Below, one piece after another: positions 7,094-56,774 of a DNA stretch of 64,000 bases (positions within the stretch are counted from its first letter, which is position 1; every line of letters begins with the position of its first letter). Location of the stretch: contig OY968770.1 in assembly GCA_963695245.1 (NCBI GenBank), positions 805,894-869,893 of the forward strand, written 5' to 3'. The position numbers and the translations under genes are program-made. This DNA comes from an uncultured Gammaproteobacteria bacterium (lineage in GTDB: Bacteria; Pseudomonadota; Gammaproteobacteria; JBGSLN01). The notes beneath the pieces were generated by a model that was given only the letters and a program-made list of their open reading frames with translations, searched no databases and was not told the origin of the DNA.

Positions 7094-7197
7094 CCATGTA
7101 GGTTGGGCTGACGAAGAAATCCCAACAGGGTATTCATTTAATTACGGCCTTATTAAGTTGCCACGGCTGTTGGGCTTCCTTCGTCAGCCCAACCTAC
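7094..7197 (+). repeat. REPIN/MITE-like element copy 2
   Basis: atgtaggttgggctgacgaag...ggtattcatttaattacggccttattaagttgccacggctgttgggcttccttcgtcagcccaacctacat. The right-hand outer flank tgtaaatcgaag follows. Confidence 0.9.
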
Positions 7198-10043: not shown

Positions 10044-10150
10044 ATGTAGGTTGGGCTGACGCTTCGAAGCCCAACAGGGTATTCATTTAATTATGGCCTT
10101 ATTTAGTTGCCACGGCTTGTTGGGCTTCGAAGCGTCAGCCCAACCTACAT
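10044..10150 (+). repeat. REPIN/MITE-like element copy 3
   Basis: Arms gacgcttcgaag / cttcgaagcgtc. Followed by the outer flank ttgattttgaatgtaaatcgaag. Confidence 0.9.
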
Positions 10151-10827: not shown

Positions 10828-10898
10828 AAAGTTATCTAAACGTCCAGATTTTCAACATTCAGTGCATTAGATTGGATAAATTCTTTTCTGGGCTCAAC

Positions 10899-13280
<2,382 letters not shown>

Positions 13281-13426
13281 TCAGAGGCTTAATTTTTAAC
13301 ACTAACCTACTGATTTAGATAACATTTGAAGGTCTTATAGTATACCAATTTTTATTCAAAAAGGCCATTAAATCTACATATTTTGACATTATCTAAACTA
13401 ATATTACAAAACTGAAAAAACTATTA

Positions 13427-13530
13427 ATGTAGGTTGGGCTGAGGTCGGAAGCCCAACAGAGTATTCATTTAATTACGGCCTTATTTAGTTGCCACGGCCT
13501 GTTGGGCTTCCGACCTCAGCCCAACCTACT
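13427..13530 (+). repeat. REPIN/MITE-like element copy 4 (between recF and gyrB)
   Basis: Arms gaggtcggaagc / gcttccgacctc. Confidence 0.9.
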
Positions 13531-13568
13531 TTAATTATCGTAATTGAGACAAACTCATGAATTATATT

Positions 13569-13584
13569 TGTTCCACGTGAAACA
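13569..13584. promoter_or_regulatory. parS site 1 (ParB-binding centromere-like site)
   Basis: TGTTCCACGTGAAACA, exact match to the canonical parS 16-mer. Lies immediately 3' of the recF stop codon. Confidence 0.85.
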
Positions 13585-14676
13585 TTATCCAGAATTCGGC
13601 ATATCAAGCACAGTGTTATGTTTCACGTGGAACATTTTATGTTGCTTAAATACATTTTTAACTGAGGCTAATTGTGACTCACTGATACCACTAATAAAAA
13701 ATTGCCCTTCTAAATTTTTTAAACATTGAATGAATTGTTCTACTTTTGATTTGTCTAATTCAGCATGAATATCATCAATTAAAAAAATGGCTTGTTTCCC
13801 AGCTAGTTGATTGACTAACCGTGCCTGTGACAGACACATTAGCCAAACAAATAACTTTTGCTGGCCTCGGGAGAGTGCATCTACAATGGGTTTACGATTG
13901 ATAGTGATTTTGAGGTCTGCTCGATGAATACCATAAAATGTATAACCCAATTCTAAATCTTTTGAAATATTCTTTTGCAAAATTTCATCATATTGTAAAT
14001 CTTTACTCCATCCCTGATAAAAATCAATTTTTACATTTTCATAACAGTAATCCTGTAAAAATGATTTAAAAGGCGGAATAAACTGTTGTAAAAATTTCTG
14101 CCTTGCCTCAGTCACTTTATTAGCTGTTTTGATTAAGATCTCATTCCAGGCAGAAATGACATTTAGAGGTTGCCTCTGCCGAATCGCGAGATTCCTTTGC
14201 TGTAGCGCTTTTTGGTTCTTGCGCCACTGAGTTAAAAAAGAAGGTTCCACGTGAAACACACCTAAATCTATAAACTGTCTTCTAATTTTAGGACCTTCTG
14301 TTAAAAGAGAAAAGCTGTCATTATTTAGGATTTGAACCGGCAATATTTTCGAAATTTCTGCTACAGATACAAATTCACCATCTAATTTCTGATGGTTTAT
14401 CCCCTGATAATCTCTGGAAACCCCAATATTATGTAGTTTTTGTGTTGTATTAAGAAATTTTAAAAATACCAATAATCCATTTTTATCATCCTGTATTACT
14501 CGTTTAGTGAGATGCGTTCTAAAAGAACGACCAAAGCTGCATAAATAAATTGCTTCCAAAAAACTGGTTTTGCCGCTGCCGTTTTCACCATAGAATAAAT
14601 TTACTTCCGGATGAAGCCTGGCTTCTACCGATGAAAAATTACGGAAATGTTCAATTTTTATGAAATGGATGGGCAT
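13585..14676 (-). CDS. recF: DNA replication and repair protein RecF
   Basis: MPIHFIKIEHFRNFSSVEARLHPEVNLFYGENGSGKTSFLEAIYL... Confidence 0.96.
   Translation of the reverse strand: MPIHFIKIEHFRNFSSVEARLHPEVNLFYGENGSGKTSFLEAIYLCSFGRSFRTHLTKRVIQDDKNGLLVFLKFLNTTQKLHNIGVSRDYQGINHQKLDGEFVSVAEISKILPVQILNNDSFSLLTEGPKIRRQFIDLGVFHVEPSFLTQWRKNQKALQQRNLAIRQRQPLNVISAWNEILIKTANKVTEARQKFLQQFIPPFKSFLQDYCYENVKIDFYQGWSKDLQYDEILQKNISKDLELGYTFYGIHRADLKITINRKPIVDALSRGQQKLFVWLMCLSQARLVNQLAGKQAIFLIDDIHAELDKSKVEQFIQCLKNLEGQFFISGISESQLASVKNVFKQHKMFHVKHNTVLDMPNSG
13619..13634. promoter_or_regulatory. parS site 2
   Basis: TGTTTCACGTGGAACA, the reverse complement of site 1. 34 bp from site 1, inside the last codons of recF (MFHVKHN). 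Confidence 0.85.
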
Positions 14677-15846: not shown

Positions 15847-17271
15847 TTAACTGGTCAGTAACCGTAACAGGTTTGTGAAGTCCTCTGCAATATCATTGTC
15901 ATCCTTTTTCAATTCCAAAATTTTACGGTGGGCATGAATAACCGTGGTATGATCCCGTCCTCCAAAAGCATCTCCAATTTCAGGAAGACTGTGACTGGTC
16001 AACTCCTTAGCTAAACTCATAGCAATCTGTCTGGGTCTGGCAACCGAACGACTCCTTCGCTTTGAGAGTATATCAACGACCTTAATTTTGTAGTATTCGG
16101 CCACGGTTTTAATAATGTTATCAATGGAAACTAATTTATCCTGTAGGCTTAATAAATCCTTCAAAGACTCTTTAACCAACTCTAAGGAAATAGGTTTCCC
16201 TGTAAAATATGCATGGGCACTTACTCTTTTTAACGCCCCCTCTAATTCTCTAACATTTGAACGAACCCGCTTGGCAATGAAAAAAGCCACATCATTAGGT
16301 AATTCAATATTAATCTGTTCTGCTTTACTCATCAAGATTGCCACCCGAGTTTCAAGCTCCGGTGGTTCAATAGAAACCGTTAATCCCCAACCCAATCTTG
16401 ACTGCAATCTTTCCTCAACACCTCTGATTTCTTTAGGGAACCTGTCGCTGGTTAAAATAATTTGCTGTCCACCTTCCAGTAAAGCATTAAAAGTGTGAAA
16501 AAATTCTTCTTGTGAGCGATCTTTACCTGCAAAAAATTGAATATCATCAATGATTAACACATTCACACTTCGATAATAATGCTTAAAATCATTAATGCGG
16601 TTGGTTTGTAATGCTTTAACCATATCCGCCACAAACCGCTCAGAATGCAGATAGACAACTTTGGAAAGCGCATTTTCCTGCATAATTAAATTACCCACTG
16701 CATGACATAAGTGCGTTTTACCAAGTCCGACTCCCCCATATACAAACATAGGATTGTATGCTTTGCCAGGATTTTGAGCTACCTGAAGTGCTGCAGCGCG
16801 AGCAAGCTGATTAGATTTACCTTCTACAAAACTTTCAAAAGTAAAAGTAGGGTTAATATTATGCTCGTGTTTAATATCATTTATTTGGATTTTTCTTTCA
16901 GGGCTGGTTCTGACAAAATTATTCACAGCCTCAATATTAACAATTCCACTGGAAGGTTTTTGCTTTTCCCCAATTTTAAGTAAGATTTTAAAATCACAAG
17001 TTTTTTGCTCTTCAATCATCAGATGCTTAAGCTGCTCATGGATTCTTGCCATGTATTTTTCCTTAATCCATTCAAGAACAAATTGATTGGGCGCATAAAG
17101 GGTTAAACTATCTTCAGCAAGACTCTCTGCCTGTAAAGGCCGTAACCAAGTGTTATAAGACTGTTCTGACTCATTTGAAGCCAGTTCCTGCTTAAGTCGT
17201 TGCAGACATTTTTCCCAAATATTAAGCACAAGATTCCCCAATAAGCTGTTGATAAGTTGTGAGTAGCGCAC
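15847..17271 (-). CDS. dnaA: Chromosomal replication initiator DnaA
   Basis: AAA+ ([10 protein letters not shown]) and C-terminal DNA-binding domain (…[14 protein letters not shown]). The start at 17271 is a GTG. An in-frame GTG 16 codons downstream ([12 protein letters not shown]) is an alternative. Confidence 0.96.
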
Positions 17272-17478
17272 TGAATAACCTGTAGAATAACAAAGTCTAC
17301 CTTAAGTTATCCACAGAAAATTTAACTTATTAACAGAAGCAGTTAGGTTATACACAGGGTAAAATATTAGTTAAGCCTATGTTAAGTCATTATTTTCTAG
17401 GCTTTTCCACAGAAAAAACTTACTTAATAATAATATAAAATAAAAATACTTTATATATATTAATAAAATACAGAATCA

Positions 17479-17515
17479 ATGTAGGTTGGGCTGACGCAGG
17501 AAGCCCAACCTACAT
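17479..17515. repeat. Solo REP-like hairpin (single arm) inside the oriC region
   Basis: atgtaggttgggctgacgcaggaagcccaacctacat. 13-bp perfect stem, 9-nt loop. Confidence 0.8.
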
Positions 17516-17562
17516 TGATTAATTTCGTTTTTAATACGAAGAAGACGTAAATCTTATTTAAG

Positions 17563-17591
17563 TTGACATTAAGCCACAAGAACTGTAACAT
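17563..17591 (+). promoter_or_regulatory. Predicted sigma-70 promoter of the rpmH-rnpA-yidD-yidC-mnmE operon
   Basis: TTGACA - 17 bp - TAACAT, about 35 nt upstream of the rpmH ATG. Confidence 0.5.
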
Positions 17592-17626
17592 CTGCCGGCT
17601 AAAAGTTTATTTTTTGAGTAGGCAAG

Positions 17627-18341: not shown

Positions 18342-20069
18342 ATGGAACAGGCCCAAAGAATTTTTTTATATGCAGCTTTATTCGTTGTGGCATTTTTTCT
18401 GTGGCAATCCTGGAATCGATATAGCGAACATTTGCCTAAAACTACTTTTACTCATCAAAGTACACAACAAGTATCAGATGAAACAACCAAAACCACTGAT
18501 AACCAAACCACCAGCTCCAAAGAATCGGCAAATGCTGCAAATTCAAATAATTTTTCTAATGCTCCAGCTTTCAATGCTGTTGCTAAAACGAAAACCAGTA
18601 ATCTTCAATCAATACCTAAAAGTCGATTGATTGAAGTTAACACGGATGTATTCAAAATTGGTATAGATACCAAAGGCGGGAATATTGTTTCTTTAAAACT
18701 AAAGAAATTTCCTGTATCTCTAAAAGAAAAAGATAATCCTTCCGTTTTACTCACAGATAAGCCAGAAAAATTATATATTGCTGAAAGTGCATTAATGGGT
18801 AAAGCCGGTCCTGACACTCGCACGCAACTGGCGCAGTATAAAGCTTCTGCCAAAAGCTATACGCTGACCAACAATGAACTCAAAGTTAATTTAATCTGGA
18901 CGAATCCACAAGGGGTGGAAGTTGTTAAAACTTATACCTTCAAAAAAGACAGCTACCTGATTCATGTAGCTTATAATGTTACCAACAATAGTTCAAAACC
19001 TTGGACTGGACAATTTTACAGTCAGTTGACCCGTAAAAACGTCAAAGAAAGCGGTACTCACTTATTTCAGATTCATCCGTATTTTGGCGCAGCCATTTCC
19101 AGCCCGCAAAAGCGCTATGATGAAGTTAGTTTTAAAGATATGAAATCAACGCCCATTAATCAAAGCACAAAAGATGGTTGGGCAGCTATGGTACAAAGAT
19201 ATTTTGTCAGCGCCTGGGTGCCAGATGCAGATAAAACTTTCCATTATTATAGTAAGGCAAGTGCCAATGATATTTATACCATTGGTATGGCAAGTAATCC
19301 GATTACCGTAAAACCTGGCGCCACAGTCACTGTGGGTTCTAAACTTTACTCAGGACCTGAAGTTACCTCAGTTCTAAAAAGTATCGCACCAGGGCTTGAG
19401 CAAACCGTCAGTTACGGTTGGTTATGGTTCATCTCTGTGATTGTTTTTTGGGTCATGGCTAAAATTTACTGGGTTGTCGGTAACTGGGGCTGGTCGATTA
19501 TTTTAGTCACTGTGCTCATCAAGCTAATCTTTTTTCCTTTGTCTGCTAAAAGCTATAAATCTATGGCGAGAATGCGGGGCTTACAACCTAAAATTAAAGC
19601 TTTAAGAGAGCGCCATGCGGATGATAAGCAAAAACAATCTCAAGCAATGATGGAATTGTATAAAAAGGAAAAAGTAAATCCTGTGGGAGGCTGTTTACCC
19701 ATTTTGGTACAGATTCCCGTATTTTTTGCACTTTATATGGTACTGATTGAAAGTGTACAGTTACGCCAGGCGCCATGGATTTTATGGATTCATGATTTAT
19801 CTGTGCCAGATCCTTATTTCATTTTGCCGGTGTTAATGGGGATCACCATGTTTGTTCAGCAAAAATTAAATCCACCGCCACCGGATCCAACCCAGGCTAA
19901 GGTAATGATGTTTTTACCGGTAATTTTTACCGTGCTGTTTGCCTATTTTCCTGCTGGTTTGGTACTTTACTGGGTGGTTAATAATGGGTTATCTATTTTG
20001 CAGCAATGGTATATTACTCGGAAAGTAGAAGCTGACGAGAAAAAAAATAAATATCGAAAGAAAAAATGA
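18342..20069 (+). CDS. yidC: Membrane protein insertase YidC
   Basis: 575 aa. N-terminal TM, large periplasmic domain, conserved C-terminal 5-TM core. Confidence 0.95.
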   Translation: MEQAQRIFLYAALFVVAFFLWQSWNRYSEHLPKTTFTHQSTQQVSDETTKTTDNQTTSSKESANAANSNNFSNAPAFNAVAKTKTSNLQSIPKSRLIEVNTDVFKIGIDTKGGNIVSLKLKKFPVSLKEKDNPSVLLTDKPEKLYIAESALMGKAGPDTRTQLAQYKASAKSYTLTNNELKVNLIWTNPQGVEVVKTYTFKKDSYLIHVAYNVTNNSSKPWTGQFYSQLTRKNVKESGTHLFQIHPYFGAAISSPQKRYDEVSFKDMKSTPINQSTKDGWAAMVQRYFVSAWVPDADKTFHYYSKASANDIYTIGMASNPITVKPGATVTVGSKLYSGPEVTSVLKSIAPGLEQTVSYGWLWFISVIVFWVMAKIYWVVGNWGWSIILVTVLIKLIFFPLSAKSYKSMARMRGLQPKIKALRERHADDKQKQSQAMMELYKKEKVNPVGGCLPILVQIPVFFALYMVLIESVQLRQAPWILWIHDLSVPDPYFILPVLMGITMFVQQKLNPPPPDPTQAKVMMFLPVIFTVLFAYFPAGLVLYWVVNNGLSILQQWYITRKVEADEKKNKYRKKK

Positions 20070-21418
20070 TCCTTGATGCTGACACAATTGCAGCCATCGC
20101 CACGCCTCCTGGTAAAGGAGGCGTTGGCATTATTCGAATTTCAGGCACAAAATCCCTCATGATTGCCAAACATATTACTGGCAAAAACCTATCTGCCCGA
20201 CAAGCTACACTGACTAAATTTAAGGGAAAAGAAGGGGTACTGGATGAAGGCATTGCGATTTATTTTCAGGCACCGAACTCCTTTACTGGTGAAGATGTGG
20301 TTGAATTACAGGGACATGGCGGCCCTGTGGTGATGGATTTACTGTTAAATGAAGTTCTCAATCTCGGCGCTAAAATGGCCAAAGCCGGTGAATTCAGTGA
20401 ACGGGCTTTTTTAAATGATAAGCTGGATTTAGCACAAGCAGAAGCAATTGCGGATTTGATAGATTCTGGTTCACAAAAAGCTGCAAAGGCAGCCATTCAA
20501 TCTCTGCAGGGTGTTTTTTCCAAAAAAGTTCATTCAGTGACAGAACAATTAATTCATATCAGAACATTTGTAGAAGCAGCCATTGATTTTTCTGATGAAG
20601 ATATTGAAAGTTTAAGCTGTGAAAATTTAGCGAAGAAAATCTCTCAACTGTTAGCAGAATTAAAAAACATTCAAACACAGGCAAATCAGGGACAATTGCT
20701 AAGGGAAGGTATTAATGTTGTAATTATTGGCAAACCCAATGCAGGAAAATCCAGTTTACTGAATCAGTTGGTAGGCAATGAAACGGCAATTGTTACCGAT
20801 ATTGCTGGAACCACGCGCGATGTATTAAAAGAATATATTCACATTGAGGGTTTGCCCATACACATTATTGATACGGCTGGTTTACGAAAAACTGAAGATA
20901 TTGTGGAACAAAAAGGCGTGGAACGGACTTTAAAACAGGTGGAGCGCGCTGATATGATCATTGCAATGTTTGATGCCTGTGAGTTTGAAACTCAAGTTGT
21001 AAAAAATCTTTTAGCTGACTGGCAGGTTAATTTAAGTGATGCCATTATTGTTAAAAATAAAATAGATTTAACCGAAGAATCTTCAGGGACAAGTATTGAA
21101 AATCAAATGCAAATCATAAAAGTTTCCATAAAAAATAACACGGGGCTTGAGGATTTGAAGCAGGAGATAAAAGCAAAAGCAGGATTTCAAAGTGGTGAAG
21201 CCGGCACTTTCAGTGCCAGACGCAGACATTTGGTTATTTTAGCCGAAGCTGAAAACTGTATTGAGCAAAGTTATCAGCAATTAACCCAAAATCAGGCATT
21301 GGAGCTGGTAGCAGAAGAGTTGATGCAGGCACAAAAAGCTTTAGGCAACATCACCGGTGAATTCAGTTCAGATGATTTACTGGGGGAAATTTTTTCAAAC
21401 TTTTGTATAGGGAAATAA
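20066..21418 (+). CDS. mnmE: tRNA modification GTPase MnmE
   Basis: 450 aa. G-domain ([18 protein letters not shown]) and C-terminal CIGK. ATGA overlap with the yidC stop. Confidence 0.95.
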
Positions 21419-36340: not shown

Positions 36341-38653
36341 ATGAGCAAAAATTTAATTATTGTAGAGTCACCTGCTAAGGCAAAGACCATTAAAAAATAT
36401 TTGGGCAAAGATTTTGAAGTATTAGCATCCTACGGTCATGTACGCGATTTACCCTCTAAAACTGGCGCTATTAAACCGGATGAAGATTTTAAAAGCGATG
36501 ATTACATTCCAAAATATCAGCTCATTGAACGCAATGAAAGACATGTTTTAGCCATCGCTAAGGCCTTAAAGTCATCTGATGCCTTATATCTGGCCACTGA
36601 CCCGGATCGCGAAGGTGAAGCGATTTCCTGGCATTTACTGGAGTATTTAAAGGGAAAAAATCTGGTAAAAGATAAACCTGCAAAGCGAGTTGTATTCCAC
36701 GAAATAACCAAAAAAGCTGTCAATGATGCTGTAGCTAATCCTCGTGATATTTCTATGGAACTGGTCAATGCTCAGCAAGCCAGACGTGCATTGGATTATC
36801 TGGTGGGATTTAACTTATCTCCTTTGCTTTGGAAAAAAGTGCGTCAGGGTCTTTCTGCAGGAAGAGTGCAAAGTCCTGCCTTACGGATGATTGTTGAACG
36901 TGAAAAAGAAATTGAAGCATTCAAACCAAGAGAGTATTGGAGCATTGAAGCTGATTTACAAAAAGATAAGCAGGCATTTTTAAGTAAACTCATAGAGTTT
37001 GAAAAAGAAAAAGTAAAACAATTTTCTATAACGAAAGAAACTCAGGCAATGTCAGCCAGAGAAACTTTACTCAAACTTGCGAACGGTCAGTTGATTGTAA
37101 AGCAGGTTGAGAAAAAACAACGAAAACGCAATCCCGCAGCCCCTTTTATTACTTCAACTTTACAACAGGAAGCTGCCAGAAAACTTGGGTTTACGGCTCA
37201 GCGCACCATGAGAACAGCCCAGCAACTTTATGAAGGTATTGATGTGGGCGAAGGTTCACCTGTGGGCTTGATAACTTACATGCGGACAGACTCAGTCAAT
37301 TTGGCTGAAGAAGCTTTGGCAGATATCCGTGCTGTGATAGCTTCAGAATATGGCGCCGATAACGTTCCCAAAGAAGCCAGAAGCTTTAAGAGTAAGGTGA
37401 AAAATGCTCAGGAAGCGCACGAAGCCATTCGTCCCACCTCAGCCAGTCGATTACCTAAAGATATCAGCGCTCATTTAACTTCGGAACAGTTAAAACTTTA
37501 CGAGTTAATTTGGAAACGTACCCTTGCCAGTCAAATGGCGCACGCTACTTTAAATACGGTCACCGTCGATCTTGCCTGTGGCGATGATCACACTTTTAGA
37601 GCCAATGGTTCTATTGTTGCTCACCCTGGATTTTTGTCGGTGTATCAAGAAGGTCTGGATGATGCTGCTAAAGAAAAAGCGCTGGGTGAAGAAAAATTAC
37701 TGCCAGAATTAAAAGCAGGCGATGCAGTACAGTTGCTGGAAATTCGTGCCGATCAACATTTTACCGAACCACCGCCTCGCTACAGTGAAGCCTCTTTAAT
37801 TAAAGAGTTGGAAGAGTTCGGTATTGGCAGACCTTCTACTTATGCTTCGATTATTTCTACTTTATTGAATCGTGAATATGTCGTCTTAGATCAAAAACGC
37901 TTTAAACCTACGGATGTGGGACGCATTGTCAGTAAATTTTTAACAGAACATTTTACTACGTATGTGGATTATGGTTATACCGCTAATTTAGAAGATACTC
38001 TGGATGCCATTTCTCGAGGTGAGCAACAGTGGATACCCATGTTACGAGAGTTCTGGCAACCTTTTGCCAAACAAATATCTATTATCGAAGAGACGGTTTC
38101 CCGTCAGGATGTTACTCATGAAGCCTTAGATGAAGCCTGCCCAAAATGCGGTAAGTCTTTATCGATTCGTTTAGGTAAAAGAGGTCGTTTTATTGGTTGT
38201 GATGGCTATCCAGAATGTGACTACACTCGTAATATGGATGGTGAAGAAACTACAGCCTCTGAACTTGAAGTAGTCAAAGATAGAAAATGTCCTGAGTGCG
38301 AGTCTGATCTGGTGATTCGCCATGGACGCTATGGTAAATTTATTGGTTGTAGCGCTTATCCAAAGTGTAAGTTTATTGAGCCTTTCGAAAAACCCAAAGC
38401 ATTGGATGTTGAGTGTCCTGAATGTAAAAAAGGCAATATTATGCAACGCAAAGCTCGCTCCGGTAAGATATTTTTTTCCTGTGAACGCTATCCTGATTGT
38501 AAATATGCCTTGTGGAATGAACCCGTTAATCAACCCTGTGATTTGTGTGCCTGGCCTATCACCTGTATCAAAACCACTAAGAGTAAAGGCACTCAGCGAG
38601 TTTGTCCTCGTAAAACCTGTAAGTTTGCAGAGCAAGTTGAGTCACCAGAATGA
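36341..38653 (+). CDS. topA: DNA topoisomerase I
   Basis: 770 aa. TOPRIM start (IIVESPAKAKTIKKYLG), catalytic Tyr region, and C-terminal repeated C4 zinc ribbons (CPKCG...CDGYPEC x3-4). Confidence 0.97.
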   Translation: MSKNLIIVESPAKAKTIKKYLGKDFEVLASYGHVRDLPSKTGAIKPDEDFKSDDYIPKYQLIERNERHVLAIAKALKSSDALYLATDPDREGEAISWHLLEYLKGKNLVKDKPAKRVVFHEITKKAVNDAVANPRDISMELVNAQQARRALDYLVGFNLSPLLWKKVRQGLSAGRVQSPALRMIVEREKEIEAFKPREYWSIEADLQKDKQAFLSKLIEFEKEKVKQFSITKETQAMSARETLLKLANGQLIVKQVEKKQRKRNPAAPFITSTLQQEAARKLGFTAQRTMRTAQQLYEGIDVGEGSPVGLITYMRTDSVNLAEEALADIRAVIASEYGADNVPKEARSFKSKVKNAQEAHEAIRPTSASRLPKDISAHLTSEQLKLYELIWKRTLASQMAHATLNTVTVDLACGDDHTFRANGSIVAHPGFLSVYQEGLDDAAKEKALGEEKLLPELKAGDAVQLLEIRADQHFTEPPPRYSEASLIKELEEFGIGRPSTYASIISTLLNREYVVLDQKRFKPTDVGRIVSKFLTEHFTTYVDYGYTANLEDTLDAISRGEQQWIPMLREFWQPFAKQISIIEETVSRQDVTHEALDEACPKCGKSLSIRLGKRGRFIGCDGYPECDYTRNMDGEETTASELEVVKDRKCPECESDLVIRHGRYGKFIGCSAYPKCKFIEPFEKPKALDVECPECKKGNIMQRKARSGKIFFSCERYPDCKYALWNEPVNQPCDLCAWPITCIKTTKSKGTQRVCPRKTCKFAEQVESPE

Positions 38654-39290: not shown

Positions 39291-39394
39291 ATGTAGGTTG
39301 GACTGACGCAGGAAGCCCAACAGTGTTACATTTAATTACAGCCTGGTTTAGTTGTCACGGCTTGTTGGGCTTCCTGCGTCAGCCCAACCTACAT
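39291..39394 (+). repeat. REPIN/MITE-like element copy 8
   Basis: Arms gacgcaggaagc / gcttcctgcgtc. Variant centre. Confidence 0.9.
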
Positions 39395-44222: not shown

Positions 44223-44326
44223 ATGTAGGTTGGGCTGAGGTCGGAAGCCCAACAGGGTATTCATTTAATTATGGCCTCATTTAATTGCCACGGCCGTTGG
44301 GCTTCCGACCTCAGCCCAACCTACAT
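44223..44326 (+). repeat. REPIN/MITE-like element copy 10
   Basis: Preceded by the outer flank acttcgatttacagtcaaaatca. Confidence 0.9.
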
Positions 44327-46124: not shown

Positions 46125-46229
46125 ATGCAGGTTGGGCTGACGAAGAAAGCCCAACAGCCGTGGCCACTAAATTAGGCCATAATTAAATGAATAACTCTGT
46201 TGGGCTTTCTTCGTCAGCCCAACCTACAT
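46125..46229 (-). repeat. REPIN/MITE-like element copy 11 (reverse orientation)
   Basis: atgcaggttgggctgacgaagaaagcccaacagccgtggccactaaattaggccataattaaatgaataac... Confidence 0.9.
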
Positions 46230-47391: not shown

Positions 47392-47497
47392 ATGTAGGTT
47401 GGGCTGAGGAAGGAAGCCCAACAGAGTTATTCATTTAATTACGGCCTTATTTAGTTGCCACAGCCTGTTGGGCTTCCTTCCTCAGCCCAACCTACAT
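47392..47497 (+). repeat. REPIN/MITE-like element copy 12
   Basis: Arms gaggaaggaagc / gcttccttcctc. Preceded by the outer flank acttcgatttacatgcaaattca. Confidence 0.9.
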
Positions 47498-52508: not shown

Positions 52509-52548
52509 TGCCAAATTTCTGAACAAAAATTGGCGTATGAGCATTATT

Positions 52549-54444
52549 ATGGACTATTCACATCAATTTGACATTATTGTCGTGGGGGGCGGTCATGCTG
52601 GTACCGAAGCTGCAATGGCTTCTGCCCGTATGGGTGCAGATACTCTATTGCTCACTCATAACATGGATACTTTAGGTCAAATGTCTTGCAACCCTGCTAT
52701 TGGTGGTATTGGTAAAGGACATCTGGTAAAAGAAATCGATGCATTAGGTGGCTTGATGGCTAAGGCCATTGATAAAGCAGGTATCCAGTTCCGTATTCTT
52801 AATGCCAGCAAAGGTCCTGCAGTACGCTCAACGCGAGCGCAGGCAGATAGATTTCTCTACAAACAGGCTGTCATTAATGCATTGCAGCATCAAGATAACC
52901 TTACCCTGTTTCAACAGGGGGTGGAAGATTTACTGATTGAGGATCAAACAGTTGTGGGTGTGGTTACCCAAATGGGATTAAAGTTTTTTGCTAAAAAAAT
53001 TATTCTTACCGTGGGAACCTTTTTAGGCGGTCGCATTCATATTGGGCGCAGCCACTATCAGGGTGGCCGGGCAGGTGACCCGCCTGCCAATGGGCTTTCG
53101 CAAAAACTTCGCGCCCTGCCCTTTAATGTAGAACGCTTAAAAACCGGCACACCTCCCAGAATTGATGGCCGCACTATCGATTATTCAGAGTTATCCGTAC
53201 AGCCGGGCGATGATCCAGTACCAGTTTTTTCTTTTATGGGTAAAGCTTGTGAGCATCCTGAGCAGGTGCCTTGCCATATTACATATACCAACGAAAAAGC
53301 CCATCAAATTATTGCCTCAGGGATGAAAGATTCCCCTATTTATACTGGCCTTATTGAAGGTACAGGTCCCAGATATTGTCCTTCTATTGAAGATAAAGTC
53401 GTGCGTTTTGCCGATAAAGATAAACATCAGATTTTTATTGAGCCTGAAGGTTTAAATACCACCGAAGTGTATCCCAATGGTATTTCTACCAGCCTGCCCT
53501 TTGATATCCAGCTTCAATTCGTGCGTGCCATTAAAGGATTTGAAAACGCTCATCTTACCCGTGCAGGCTACGCTATAGAATATGACTTTTTTGATCCAAG
53601 GGATCTCAAAGCCTCTTTAGAGACCCGACATTTAGAAGGCTTGTATTTTGCCGGTCAAATCAACGGTACCACAGGCTATGAAGAAGCGGCAGCACAAGGG
53701 TTAATTGCAGGTTTAAACGCAGCCTTAGCCGTCCAGAACAAACCTGCCTGGACACCAGCAAGAGATGAAGCTTACATCGGTGTCTTAATTGATGATTTAA
53801 TTACTCGGGGTACAAAAGAGCCTTATCGGATGTTTACCAGTCGGGCTGAATATCGCTTGTTGCTTCGAGAAGATAATGCTGATTTAAGGTTAACAGCTAA
53901 AGCCCATGAGCTGGGTTTGATTGAACCTGCTCGCTATCAAAGATTGCAGGATAAAATTAAACAGATGGAGCAAGAGTTAAAACACATCCAAAGTATCGTA
54001 GTTCAACCTGAAACTGAAGCTGCCAAAGCTCTGGAAGTATATCTGGATAAACCCTTAACAAAAGCTTATAAACTCATGGATTTATTAAAGCGACCAGAAT
54101 TAACCTATCAAAAATTATTGGCTATCAAAGCTTTTAAACTCACTCTTACAGATTCACAGGTGAGTGAGCAGATTGAAATTCAGGCAAAATACGCAGGATA
54201 CATTGAGCGTCAGGCAGAAGATATCGCTAAACTTAAACATTATGAAAACACCAAGCTACCGCAAAATATCGATTACACTAAAGTGCGCGGACTCTCTGCT
54301 GAAGTCACTCAAAAATTAATGCAGGTTCAACCACAAACCATTGGCATGGCCAGTAGAATTTCAGGGATAACACCAGCAGCGATTTCACTTTTGCTTATCC
54401 ATCTTAAAAAAGGCCAGCTCAAAAAACAGATTCAAGAGGTTTAA
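52549..54444 (+). CDS. mnmG: tRNA uridine 5-carboxymethylaminomethyl modification enzyme MnmG (GidA)
   Basis: [22 protein letters not shown]... (compare E. coli [22 protein letters not shown]). Full length. Confidence 0.96.
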
Positions 54445-54450
54445 GTACGC

Positions 54451-55092
54451 GTGTTTACTAATGATCATAAGTTGCAGCTATCGCAGGGTTTAATTGATTT
54501 GCAGATAGAAACCACCCAAGCTATGAATGAGGCTTTGCTGGCATTTTTAGAAACCATGCTCAAATGGAATCATGCTTATAATTTAACCGCAATCACAGAG
54601 TCTTCTGCCATGGTCGCGCAGCATTTGCTCGATAGCCTGAGTATTAAACCTTATCTAAAAGGCCAGCATATATTAGATGTAGGTACAGGCGCAGGTTTGC
54701 CTGGTATTCCCCTTGCCATTATTTTTCCGAATATACAATTTACTTTGCTGGATGCCTTAGGAAAGCGCTGTAAATTCCTGCAGCAGGTTGTGTATGAGTT
54801 ATCTTTGAAAAATGTCACCATTGAAAATGCCAGAGTAGAAAACTTCGCAGCTTCTACAGCATATGATCAGATTTTAACAAGAGCCTTTGCCAGCACTGCG
54901 ACTATTTTAAATCAATGCCATCATTTGTTGGCGCCAGCAGGACAGTTTTTATGCATGAAAGGGGTAAATTACGCCAAAGAACTTGAGGAAATTCCAGATA
55001 CCTATACAATCGAAGGTATTCATACTTTAAAAATTCCGGGCGAAACCGCCCAAAGACACTTAATTGTAATAGAGAGTTCTCACAGTGGGTAA
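54451..55092 (+). CDS. rsmG: 16S rRNA (guanine527-N7)-methyltransferase RsmG (GidB)
   Basis: 213 aa, GTG start. ...KWNHAYNLTAI...DVGTGAGLPGIPLAI... Confidence 0.9.
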   Translation: MFTNDHKLQLSQGLIDLQIETTQAMNEALLAFLETMLKWNHAYNLTAITESSAMVAQHLLDSLSIKPYLKGQHILDVGTGAGLPGIPLAIIFPNIQFTLLDALGKRCKFLQQVVYELSLKNVTIENARVENFAASTAYDQILTRAFASTATILNQCHHLLAPAGQFLCMKGVNYAKELEEIPDTYTIEGIHTLKIPGETAQRHLIVIESSHSG

Positions 55093-55873
55093 AATTGTTG
55101 CCATTGCCAATCAAAAAGGGGGCGTGGGTAAAACCACCAGCTGCGTTAATCTGGCAGCTTCCTTAAGTGCTGAAGCACGTACCGTTTTGCTGATTGACCT
55201 TGATCCTCAGGGCAACGCCACCATGGGCAGTGGGATTAACAAACATCAGCTACAAAATTCTGCCTTAGAAGTTTTAATGCAAGAGTGCGAGCCAGAAGCG
55301 GCTGTTTACAGTACTCAGGCAGGCTATGATGTTATGCCTTCTAATCGAGAATTAACCGCAGCAGAAGTAGAGCTGATGAATGTGGCCAGAAAAGAATATC
55401 GTCTGTCCCAGGCGCTTTCAAAACTCAAAGGGCGGTACGATTTTATTTTGATCGACTGTCCGCCTTCTTTAAACATGCTGACATTGAACGCTTTGGTGGC
55501 AGCAGACTCGGTGCTTGTGCCCATGCAGTGTGAATATTATGCCTTGGAAGGCTTAACCGGACTCATGGAAACCGTTCAATCTGTACAAAAAACCGTGAAT
55601 CAAAAACTGAAAATCGAAGGGCTTTTAAGAACCATGTACGATGCCAGAAACCGGCTTACCGGCGAGGTTTCTGATCAGTTAAAACAACATTTTGGTGATA
55701 AGGTTTTCAAAACCGTGATCCCAAGAAATGTGCGTTTGGCAGAAGCCCCAAGTTTTGGTCTGCCTGCGTTACTTTACGATAAAAATTCTCAAGGGGCTGC
55801 CGCCTACGTGGAACTGGCTAAAGAAGTCATGGCAAATCGCGAAACGGAATTTTCCATGGTGGGAACTTCATAA
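55085..55873 (+). CDS. parA: Chromosome partitioning ATPase ParA (Soj)
   Basis: GTG start. GKIVAIANQKGGVGKTTSCVNLAASL, a deviant Walker A. Confidence 0.95.
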   Translation: MGKIVAIANQKGGVGKTTSCVNLAASLSAEARTVLLIDLDPQGNATMGSGINKHQLQNSALEVLMQECEPEAAVYSTQAGYDVMPSNRELTAAEVELMNVARKEYRLSQALSKLKGRYDFILIDCPPSLNMLTLNALVAADSVLVPMQCEYYALEGLTGLMETVQSVQKTVNQKLKIEGLLRTMYDARNRLTGEVSDQLKQHFGDKVFKTVIPRNVRLAEAPSFGLPALLYDKNSQGAAAYVELAKEVMANRETEFSMVGTS

Positions 55874-55886
55874 AATTTGGGAACAA

Positions 55887-56774
55887 ATGATGACAAAAAA
55901 ACGTGGTTTAGGTCGAGGCTTAGATGCCTTATTCAGTGAAGTTAACAAAAAAGATGAAGTAGATATTGATTTGCCGGCAAACTCAGGCAGTGGTCTTGAA
56001 AAGATTGCCATTGATAAAATTCAGGCAGGCCAGTATCAGCCACGACGCAATTTTTCTGAAAGTTCGTTGCAGGAACTGGCAGATTCCATTAAAGCTCAAG
56101 GCGTGATTCAACCCATTGTGCTACGTACTTTAAAAGCAGGACGATACGAAATAGTAGCCGGTGAAAGACGTTTTCGCGCCGCTAAACTGGCAAACTTAAA
56201 AGAAATCCCGGCAGTGATCAAAGAGCTGCCCGATGAAGCCGCCCTTGCCATTGCTTTGATTGAAAACATTCAAAGAGAAGATTTAAACTCCATTGAAGAA
56301 GCATTATCTTTACAGCGGTTAATCAGTGAATTTTCCATGACCCACGAGCAAATTGCCAAAGCCGTGGGAAAATCCAGAGCTGCGGTTTCTAACTTAATCC
56401 GTCTGCTGGCTTTAGAAGCAGAGGCGCGACAACTATTAGAAGACAATCAGTTACAAATGGGACATGCCAGAGCTTTATTGAGCCTCTCTGGTGCCCAACA
56501 AATCGCCACCGCCAATACCATTGTTTCAAAGGCCTTATCAGTGCGGGAAACGGAAGATATCATTCGCAGACTACAAAACCTGCAAAAAGGCACTGGCAAC
56601 AAAAAGCCTGTGGATGAGAACTTAAAGCAGGTACAAACCCAAATCGCCAGTTACTTAAAAGCAAAAGTCACTTTGCAGCAGTCTGCTGAAGGTCGTGGTA
56701 AAGTTATTATCAAATATAAAACGCCAGAAGAATTGCAAAGAATTTGTAGGTTGATGCAGGTGAGTGGTGAGTAA
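55887..56774 (+). CDS. parB: Chromosome partitioning protein ParB (Spo0J)
   Basis: 295 aa from MMTKKRGLGRGLDALF. ParB box (…QPRRNFSE…IVAGERRFRAA…) and an HTH. Confidence 0.95.
   Translation: MMTKKRGLGRGLDALFSEVNKKDEVDIDLPANSGSGLEKIAIDKIQAGQYQPRRNFSESSLQELADSIKAQGVIQPIVLRTLKAGRYEIVAGERRFRAAKLANLKEIPAVIKELPDEAALAIALIENIQREDLNSIEEALSLQRLISEFSMTHEQIAKAVGKSRAAVSNLIRLLALEAEARQLLEDNQLQMGHARALLSLSGAQQIATANTIVSKALSVRETEDIIRRLQNLQKGTGNKKPVDENLKQVQTQIASYLKAKVTLQQSAEGRGKVIIKYKTPEELQRICRLMQVSGE

What the first reader, a model, noticed from the sequence alone, without database searches (positions are those of the whole stretch)
13569..13634. Two perfect parS sites 34 bp apart straddling the recF stop codon
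TGTTCCACGTGAAACA (13569-13584) and its complement TGTTTCACGTGGAACA (13619-13634) match the universal ParB-binding parS 16-mer exactly. One lies in the recF C-terminal codons (MFHVKHN) and one just after the stop, about 3.7 kb from the putative oriC, with parAB 42 kb away in the same window. Together the two form a 17-bp inverted repeat with a 33-nt loop that could also act as an RNA hairpin at the recF mRNA 3' end.
Basis: partly seen in the sequence, partly recalled or inferred. Interest (0 to 1): 0.6.

Follow-up and report, generated by a model that had tools for sequence, protein, structure and literature searches.

The report
Chromosome centromere (parS) cluster at recF

Summary
TGTTCCACGTGAAACA (13569-13584) and its reverse complement (13619-13634) flank the recF stop codon (TAA, 13585-13587, minus strand). 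A third site, TGTTTCACGTGGAACC on the recF strand (14243-14258, one mismatch), was missed. These three are the only matches with at most one mismatch in 64 kb, and they hold every CACGTG in the window. The two coding sites lie in the RecF motifs VFHVEP and MFHVKH. P. aeruginosa parS1 and parS2 occupy the same motifs and frames and are bound by ParB in vivo. Their codons (CAC, GTG) go against this genome's AT-rich codon usage. The non-coding site next to the stop recurs 1-18 nt after the recF stop in four further Legionellales-like genomes (RecF only 45-49% identical in three of them), including Legionella pneumophila (+8), while its flanks diverge. A canonical parA-parB operon lies 42 kb away, and a likely oriC lies 3.7 kb away. 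The predicted 17-bp RNA hairpin is an automatic by-product of two adjacent palindromes. It has no U-tract, and it is absent where only one of the two sites is kept. Closely spaced parS pairs are common in metagenomes, usually upstream of parA. Verdict: a new member of a known kind, of low interest.

The parts
13569..13584 (.). parS site 3 (non-coding). Reads TGTTTCACGTGGAACA on the recF strand and starts at the first base after the recF TAA stop.
   Evidence: A perfect parS sits at +1 (L003), +4 (L006), +18 (L007) and +8 (L. pneumophila, L128) after the recF stop, with unconserved flanks.
13619..13634 (.). parS site 2 (coding). Reads TGTTCCACGTGAAACA on the recF strand, within the codons ATG TTC CAC GTG AAA CAT (M-F-H-V-K-H) near the RecF C-terminus.
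   Evidence: Same motif and frame as P. aeruginosa parS2 (PMC4368675 Table 1).
Reads TGTTTCACGTGGAACC on the recF strand, within the codons GTG TTT CAC GTG GAA CCT (V-F-H-V-E-P). It has one mismatch, the terminal C.
   Evidence: It has the same terminal C as P. aeruginosa parS1/parS4 (TGTTCCACGTGGAACC), which ParB binds in vivo (PMC5098823).
13585..14676 (-). recF, the gene that hosts two of the three sites.
   Evidence: Pfam SMC_N 3.2e-27. Gene order is dnaA-dnaN-recF-gyrB.
55085..55873 (+). parA, the partition ATPase.
   Evidence: Pfam AAA_31 1.5e-65 and CbiA/ParA. It follows gidA-gidB.
55887..56774 (+). parB, the protein expected to bind the three sites.
   Evidence: Pfam ParB_N, HTH_ParB and ParB_C. 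Best solved relatives are the Caulobacter ParB-parS complex 6T1F (8.9e-54) and H. pylori Spo0J-parS 4UMK (4.9e-52), aligned from residues 1-4. The GERRxRA motif is present.
17272..17600 (.). Putative oriC in the dnaA-rpmH spacer.
   Evidence: DnaA boxes at 17307 (perfect), 17348 and 17403, followed by an AT-rich stretch at 17420-17470. The cumulative GC-skew minimum falls at about 16-20 kb. This is inferred, not demonstrated.

Best explanation
The three 16-bp palindromes in and just after recF form the origin-proximal centromere (parS cluster) of this chromosome. By analogy with characterised ParABS systems, dimers of the ParB encoded at 55887-56774 recognise each palindrome through their helix-turn-helix domains. 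They then bind CTP, close into clamps and slide onto flanking DNA. This builds a partition complex over the dnaA-dnaN-recF-gyrB/oriC region. ParA positions that complex, and it may load condensin. Three sites within 690 bp simply raise the loading rate. Two sites are written into the conserved RecF motifs (V/M/L)FHV(E/K), so protein and DNA constraints overlap. The third is a free-standing copy next to the stop codon. What is shown here: the sequences, their enrichment, the codon bias, the conservation, and the presence of canonical parAB. What is inferred: actual ParB binding, spreading and the role in segregation.
For: (1) The sites match the consensus exactly or nearly so, and are the only matches with at most one mismatch in 64 kb. 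All three CACGTG hexamers of the window are parS cores.

(2) DNA-level selection is visible in the coding sites. The window is 38% GC, His is CAC in only 26% of cases and Val is GTG in 29%. Of 19 H-V dipeptides in 34 ORFs, only the two in recF are encoded CACGTG. The same codons are kept at both motifs in relatives whose RecF is only 39-49% identical to this one.

(3) There is a phylogenetic footprint in non-coding DNA. A perfect parS lies 1-18 nt after the recF stop in L003, L006, L007 and L. pneumophila, and in the alignment of the window's relatives only the 16-mer is conserved there. L004 and Rickettsiella have a one-mismatch intergenic site at +165 and +508.

(4) P. aeruginosa parS1 and parS2 are in recF. 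The synonymous mutations used to inactivate them show the frames V-F-H-V-E-P and M-F-H-V-E-(H/Q) (PMC4368675 Table 1). ChIP-seq shows ParB binding and more than 20 kb of spreading there (PMC5098823).

(5) The window encodes a canonical ParA and a ParB with ParB_N, HTH and C-terminal domains, closest to the ParBs co-crystallised with this same parS.

(6) The sites are origin-proximal, 3.7 kb from a DnaA-box cluster and the GC-skew minimum.

(7) Where no parS is kept at a RecF motif, the residues dictated by parS drift. E. coli, which to my knowledge lacks ParABS, has CFHNEP and MFTVEK. L. pneumophila has LFEVNC at the C-terminus, and Rickettsiella has IFQIEK.
Against: There is no binding data for this organism. 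Only 64 kb of a roughly 2.17 Mb genome could be scanned, so other and possibly more important parS sites may exist elsewhere. For the two coding sites, the RecF motifs themselves are conserved, so part of the sequence conservation reflects protein constraint. oriC is inferred from only three DnaA boxes and a shallow skew minimum.
Confidence: 0.9

Rival explanations
1. The two sites are selected as the arms of an RNA hairpin at the 3' end of recF mRNA. The hairpin would act as a terminator, attenuator, stabiliser or RNase III target, or would regulate termination at the recF stop codon.
For: The recF-sense RNA folds into a 17-bp stem (-29.1 kcal/mol, z = -3.6). Similar stems are predicted in L003 and L006, and an imperfect one in L007.
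Against: Any two adjacent copies of a near-palindrome pair automatically. No terminator-like site or U-tract was found, and there is no Rfam match. Start-to-start spacing varies (44, 44, 50 and 64 nt) and the loop sequences are unrelated. L007 has a C-A mismatch in the stem, and its fold is not better than shuffles (z = -1.9). L. pneumophila keeps the post-stop site with no partner and no hairpin (z = +1.5), and L004 keeps an intergenic site 165 nt away. The 5' arm is translated, so ribosomes would melt the stem. The perfect complementarity in the window is a 1-in-4 outcome of the two variable positions (5 and 12).
Confidence: 0.05
2. The coding sites exist only because RecF needs the FHVE/FHVK motifs, and the post-stop copy is a neutral relic of a duplicated recF 3' end. 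On this view none of them is a functional centromere.
For: Of the 120 best RecF homologues, 112 have a parS-compatible internal motif and 95 a parS-compatible C-terminal motif. The post-stop copy, read with the preceding A, would encode MFHVEQ, the RecF C-terminal motif.
Against: Codon choice at the third positions (CAC, GTG, xAA) goes against the genome's bias and is kept across lineages. The non-coding copy is perfectly conserved while its flanks are not, across lineages whose RecF is less than 50% identical to this one. Lineages that lack a parS at a motif let the dictated residues drift. The equivalent P. aeruginosa sites are bound and sufficient for segregation (PMC5098823, PMC4368675). 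L081 keeps two perfect sites in a dnaN-gyrB spacer with no recF at all.
Confidence: 0.04
3. The palindromes are operators for another CACGTG-recognising DNA-binding protein, for example a transcription factor controlling gyrB or recF, and not for ParB.
For: The post-stop site lies in the recF-gyrB spacer, upstream of a candidate gyrB promoter. This candidate is my own reading of the minus-strand sequence (TTGAAT ... TATACT at roughly 13335-13360) and was not confirmed by the promoter scan.
Against: All 16 positions match the ParB consensus, not just the core. Two of the three sites are deep inside a coding region. No candidate regulator is adjacent. Identical sites in P. aeruginosa are ParB targets.
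Confidence: 0.01

Closest known systems
Pseudomonas aeruginosa parS1 and parS2, inside recF (PA0003). They are part of the parS1-4 cluster near oriC (Bartosik 2004 from my own knowledge; Jecz 2015 PMC4368675; Lagage 2016 PMC5098823; Kawalek 2017 PMC5521831).
   Same: Both lie in the same gene, in the same two RecF motifs (VFHVEP and MFHVE/K-H/Q) and in the same reading frame. They are about 4 kb from oriC. The internal site has the same terminal-C variant. Gene order is dnaA-dnaN-recF-gyrB in both.
   Different: In P. aeruginosa the two further high-affinity sites (parS3 and parS4) are intergenic and lie near PA0011-PA0013. Here the extra site abuts the recF stop codon. The half-sites use T or C at position 5 and A or G at position 12, as in the Bacillus-type consensus. 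parAB is 42 kb from the sites here; in P. aeruginosa it is about 7 kb from oriC on the other side.
Bacillus subtilis parS (Lin and Grossman 1998, consensus TGTTNCACGTGAAACA; from my own knowledge) and the pan-bacterial parS survey of Livny et al. 2007 (not held in the library).
   Same: The same 16-bp consensus, origin-proximal, in several copies, some inside genes.
   Different: The B. subtilis sites are dispersed over the origin-proximal part of the chromosome and are not packed into 690 bp.
Closely spaced parS pairs and arrays next to parAB in many bacteria (metagenome scan) and the clustered Caulobacter parS sites (Tran 2018, PMC5815017).
   Same: Two or more perfect parS sites 20-50 nt apart.
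   Different: In those loci the pair usually lies within 400 nt of the parA start (45 of the 58 loci where a parA start is visible). None of the 7 loci with a recF hit has the pair at the recF 3' end. In this window there is no parS near parAB.
Legionella pneumophila recF locus (LT632617.1, L128).
   Same: It has the internal recF parS (GLFHVKH, perfect) and a perfect parS 8 nt after the recF stop.
   Different: The C-terminal RecF motif is LFEVNC and carries no parS, so there is no pair and no hairpin. I found no paper on Legionella parS in the library.

Membership tests
Chromosomal parS (ParB-binding centromere, Bacillus/Pseudomonas type) | 16-bp palindrome matching TGTTNCACGTGAAACA | tested here: met
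   Two exact matches and one with a single terminal mismatch.
Chromosomal parS (ParB-binding centromere, Bacillus/Pseudomonas type) | Origin-proximal location | tested here: met
   The sites are 3.7-4.4 kb from the DnaA-box cluster in the dnaA-rpmH spacer and from the cumulative GC-skew minimum. oriC itself is inferred.
Chromosomal parS (ParB-binding centromere, Bacillus/Pseudomonas type) | Cognate chromosomal ParA and ParB encoded in the genome | tested here: met
   gidA-gidB-parA-parB at 52537-56774. ParB has ParB_N, HTH_ParB and ParB_C domains, and its best PDB matches are ParB-parS complexes.
Chromosomal parS (ParB-binding centromere, Bacillus/Pseudomonas type) | Sequence maintained by selection on the DNA, not by chance or protein coding alone | tested here: met
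   Codon choice runs against the genome's bias. The non-coding copy is conserved with diverged flanks. The DNA-level sites are kept in Simiduia, L131 and L132.
Chromosomal parS (ParB-binding centromere, Bacillus/Pseudomonas type) | Specific binding and CTP-dependent loading or spreading of ParB; needed for segregation | not testable with these tools
   Shown only for the equivalent P. aeruginosa sites (PMC5098823, PMC4368675).
Intrinsic (Rho-independent) terminator or structured 3' RNA element | G+C-rich stem with a short loop followed by a U-tract; or a structure conserved with covariation | tested here: not met
   No terminator-like site in 13200-13800. The loop is 32 nt and no T-run follows. 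There is no Rfam family match. The hairpin is absent in L. pneumophila and L004 although a parS is kept.

The most novel reading that the evidence does not exclude
The juxtaposition of a parS with the recF stop codon recurs in this clade (+1, +1, +4, +18) and in L. pneumophila (+8). It might be more than a convenient landing site. ParB bound or loaded exactly at the end of recF, or the mRNA stem that two sites form, could gate transcription read-through from the dnaA-dnaN-recF operon into gyrB. That would couple partition-complex assembly to gyrase or RecF expression. Separately, the two RecF motifs may be a very old overlapping code, in which the centromere sequence dictates RecF residues (V in FHVE, H in MFHV) across Gammaproteobacteria.
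Probability: 0.07. Interest if true: 0.5.

Novelty: new member of a known kind. Interest (0 to 1): 0.2.

Why it matters
It locates the probable centromere of an uncultured, Legionellales-like bacterium, and of L. pneumophila, for which I found no parS study in the library. It shows that the recF-embedded parS sites known from P. aeruginosa are shared at the DNA level across distant Gammaproteobacteria. It also documents a lineage-specific extra site next to the recF stop. This is useful for annotation and for designing ParB ChIP or fluorescent origin-tagging experiments. It does not change what is known about ParABS systems.

Tried and rejected
- **Genome scan with RecF.** It returned a single locus, a Rickettsiella MAG at 38% identity. 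The organism has no close species representative there, so relatives came from protein searches and exact look-ups instead.
- **Organism name.** The nearest named GyrB homologues are Legionella/Legionellales at 71-72% identity.
- **Rfam on the whole window.** No match.
- **Terminator scan.** Nothing found.
- **Livny et al. 2007.** The paper could not be read.
- **L129, the second-closest relative by GyrB (82% identity).** It has no recF upstream of gyrB and no parS, so it was uninformative.
- **Post-stop site as a relic of a duplicated recF 3' end.** I found no similarity beyond the 16-mer and a preceding A. The idea cannot be excluded, and it would not change the function.
- **Fixed helical phasing between the pair.** Rejected, because spacing varies from 44 to 64 nt.
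- **The 2-mismatch match at 36892.** Treated as chance.
- **ParB specificity residues.** I did not compare them residue by residue with published specificity determinants, because I could not recall the numbering reliably.

Full report
**Observation.** The window contains TGTTCCACGTGAAACA at 13569-13584 and TGTTTCACGTGGAACA at 13619-13634 on the plus strand. The two are exact reverse complements. With one extra base they form a perfect 17-bp inverted repeat, 13569-13585 / 13618-13634, with 32 nt between the arms.

recF is the minus-strand ORF 13585-14676 (Pfam SMC_N) and ends ...KMFHVKHNTVLDMPNSG*. The site at 13619-13634 therefore lies in the codons ATG TTC CAC GTG AAA CAT. The site at 13569-13584 begins at the first base after the TAA stop.

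A third site was not reported. It is GGTTCCACGTGAAACA at 14243-14258, which reads TGTTTCACGTGGAACC on the recF strand and lies in the codons GTG TTT CAC GTG GAA CCT (V-F-H-V-E-P).

With up to two mismatches, shuffled sequence gives 0.2 matches on average and never reaches the 7 observed. The hexamer CACGTG occurs only three times in the 64 kb, once in each site.

**Context.** The gene order on the minus strand is dnaA (15847-17271), dnaN, recF, gyrB.

Upstream of dnaA, the spacer to rpmH holds DnaA boxes at 17307 (perfect), 17348 and 17403, followed by an AT-rich stretch. The cumulative GC skew has its minimum at about 16-20 kb. A putative oriC 3.7 kb from the sites is therefore reasonable, though it is inferred.

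gidA-gidB-parA-parB lie at 52537-56774. It aligns from its first residues to the Caulobacter ParB-parS complex 6T1F (8.9e-54) and to H. pylori Spo0J-parS 4UMK (4.9e-52), and it includes the GERRxRA motif. No parS lies near parAB in this window.

The exact RecF sits on a 2.17 Mb contig. Its closest RecF relatives are 45-49% identical. The nearest named GyrB homologues are Legionella/Legionellales at 71-72%.

**Is the DNA sequence itself under selection?** The window is 38% G+C. His is encoded CAC in 26% of cases and Val GTG in 29%. Of 19 His-Val dipeptides in 34 ORFs, only the two in recF are encoded CACGTG.

The same codons (TTY CAC GTG RAA C) are kept at both motifs in L003-L007. They are also kept in Simiduia curdlanivorans (L130) and L131, and with one mismatch per site in L132.

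Where no parS is kept at a motif, the residues that parS dictates drift. E. coli, which to my knowledge lacks ParABS, has CFHNEP and MFTVEK. L. pneumophila has LFEVNC at the C-terminus, and Rickettsiella has IFQIEK.

The clearest evidence is the non-coding site. A perfect parS lies at +1 (L003), +4 (L006) and +18 (L007) after the recF stop, and at +8 in Legionella pneumophila LT632617.1. In the alignment of the window's relatives, only the 16-mer is conserved there (alignment A1). L004 has a one-mismatch site at +165, beyond an inserted palindromic element. A Rickettsiella MAG has a one-mismatch site at +508. L081 has two perfect sites in a 257-nt dnaN-gyrB spacer that holds no recF at all.

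**Comparison with what is known.** In P. aeruginosa the parS sites closest to oriC lie in recF, about 4 kb from oriC (PMC3909081), and ParB binds parS1/parS2 within recF (PMC5521831). Table 1 of Jecz et al. (PMC4368675) gives parS1 as TGTTCCACGTGGAACC and parS2 as TGTTCCACGTGGAACA. It also lists the synonymous substitutions used to inactivate them. Those substitutions fix the frames as V-F-H-V-E-P and M-F-H-V-E-(H/Q). These are the two motifs and frames used in this window.

ChIP-seq shows ParB bound at those sites with more than 20 kb of spreading. It defines TGTTCCACGTGGAACM as the functional site, which covers the terminal-C variant seen at 14243-14258 (PMC5098823).

The two coding sites here are therefore positional counterparts of a characterised centromere. 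The post-stop site has no P. aeruginosa counterpart. It is shared with L. pneumophila and with the window's own clade. It is absent in Simiduia, L131 and L132, so it appears to be specific to a Legionellales-like lineage.

In 45 of the 58 loci where a parA start is visible, the pair lies within 400 nt of it. None of the 7 loci with a recF hit has the pair at the recF 3' end. Close pairs are thus a common way to build a centromere. Only the location next to the recF stop is particular to this lineage.

**The hairpin idea.** The recF-sense RNA is predicted to form the 17-bp stem (-29.1 kcal/mol, z = -3.6). That is unavoidable for two adjacent copies of a near-palindrome. The perfect match in this window is a 1-in-4 outcome of the two variable positions.

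- No terminator-like site or T-run follows the stem, and there is no Rfam match.
- Start-to-start spacing is 50, 44, 44 and 64 nt, and the loops are unrelated.
- L007 has a mismatch in the stem, and its fold is not better than shuffles.
- L. pneumophila and L004 keep an intergenic parS with no such stem.

The conserved unit is the single parS, not the stem. I rate a selected RNA role at about 5%.

**Mechanism.** The sequence features, their enrichment, the codon bias, the conservation and the presence of canonical parAB are shown here. The rest is inferred from established ParABS biology. ParB dimers would load at the three palindromes, close on CTP, slide over the oriC-proximal region and be positioned by ParA. 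Three sites in 690 bp would raise the loading rate. As in P. aeruginosa, ParB on the dnaA-dnaN-recF-gyrB operon might dampen its expression when ParB is in excess (PMC5521831), but nothing here tests that.

**Verdict.** The finding is real and correctly interpreted, but it is an ordinary chromosomal parS cluster. It is a new member of a known kind, with a modest lineage-specific twist in the stop-adjacent site. Interest is low, at 0.2.

Noticed in passing
window 10899-10901 (minus strand, inside gyrB 10836-13253): gyrB has an in-frame TAA where relatives have Gln. The 20 codons after it still encode the conserved GyrB C-terminus (VEPRKEFIQSNALNVENLDV). A Logan assembly in the same 90%-identity cluster encodes an 805-aa GyrB that is identical except for Q785 (P0242). 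The stop is therefore a single-base assembly error or a population variant, not a real truncation.
   Followed up: yes
window 13423-13535; also about 7098-7197, 10046-10148, 28318-28417, 31189-31289, 39293-39392, 44225-44324, 46127-46227, 47394-47495, with partial copies near 1582-1719 and 17481-17513: A palindromic MITE/REP-like element of about 100 nt, with ends GTAGGTTGGGCTGA... and 37-nt arms in the recF-gyrB copy. About 11 copies sit in intergenic spacers of the 64-kb window. One lies between the parS cluster and gyrB, and a short one lies inside the putative oriC spacer. There is no Rfam match. Short-read contigs of this organism (L002) and of two relatives (L005, L006) end just after recF, possibly for this reason.
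   Followed up: partly
L133 (E. coli recF), L128 (L. pneumophila), L001 (Rickettsiella) compared with window 13619-13634 and 14243-14258: The RecF residues dictated by parS (Val in FHVE, His in MFHV) are replaced where no parS is kept at that motif: CFHNEP and MFTVEK in E. coli, LFEVNC in L. pneumophila, IFQIEK in Rickettsiella. This hints that the centromere sequence shapes the protein motif. The sample is small.
   Followed up: partly
L081 3921-3998 (contig JACDZJ010000044.1): A gammaproteobacterial contig in which dnaN and gyrB are separated by only 257 nt, with no recF. The spacer carries two perfect parS sites (ATGTTTCACGTGGAACAT and ATGTTCCACGTGGAACAT). They may have been retained after loss or relocation of recF.
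   Followed up: partly
L070 1044-2027, L107 761-1038, L080 3197-5175 (metagenome loci): Some metagenome contigs carry dense arrays of 7-15 perfect parS sites within 0.3-2 kb. In L070 there are 15 sites just upstream of dnaA-dnaN.
   Followed up: no
window 21420-52500: About 30 kb separates mnmE (20066-21418) from gidA (52537), two genes that often lie close together near oriC. It includes a low-GC stretch (32-34% at 22-30 kb). It was not annotated here.
   Followed up: no
L004 6095-6185: A different palindromic repeat (GTCATTGCGAGCG...CTCGCAATGAC) is inserted between the recF stop and the intergenic parS of this relative. A decayed palindrome (ACGTTTTACGGAAAACGT) sits at the place where the stop-adjacent parS lies in the other genomes.
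   Followed up: no
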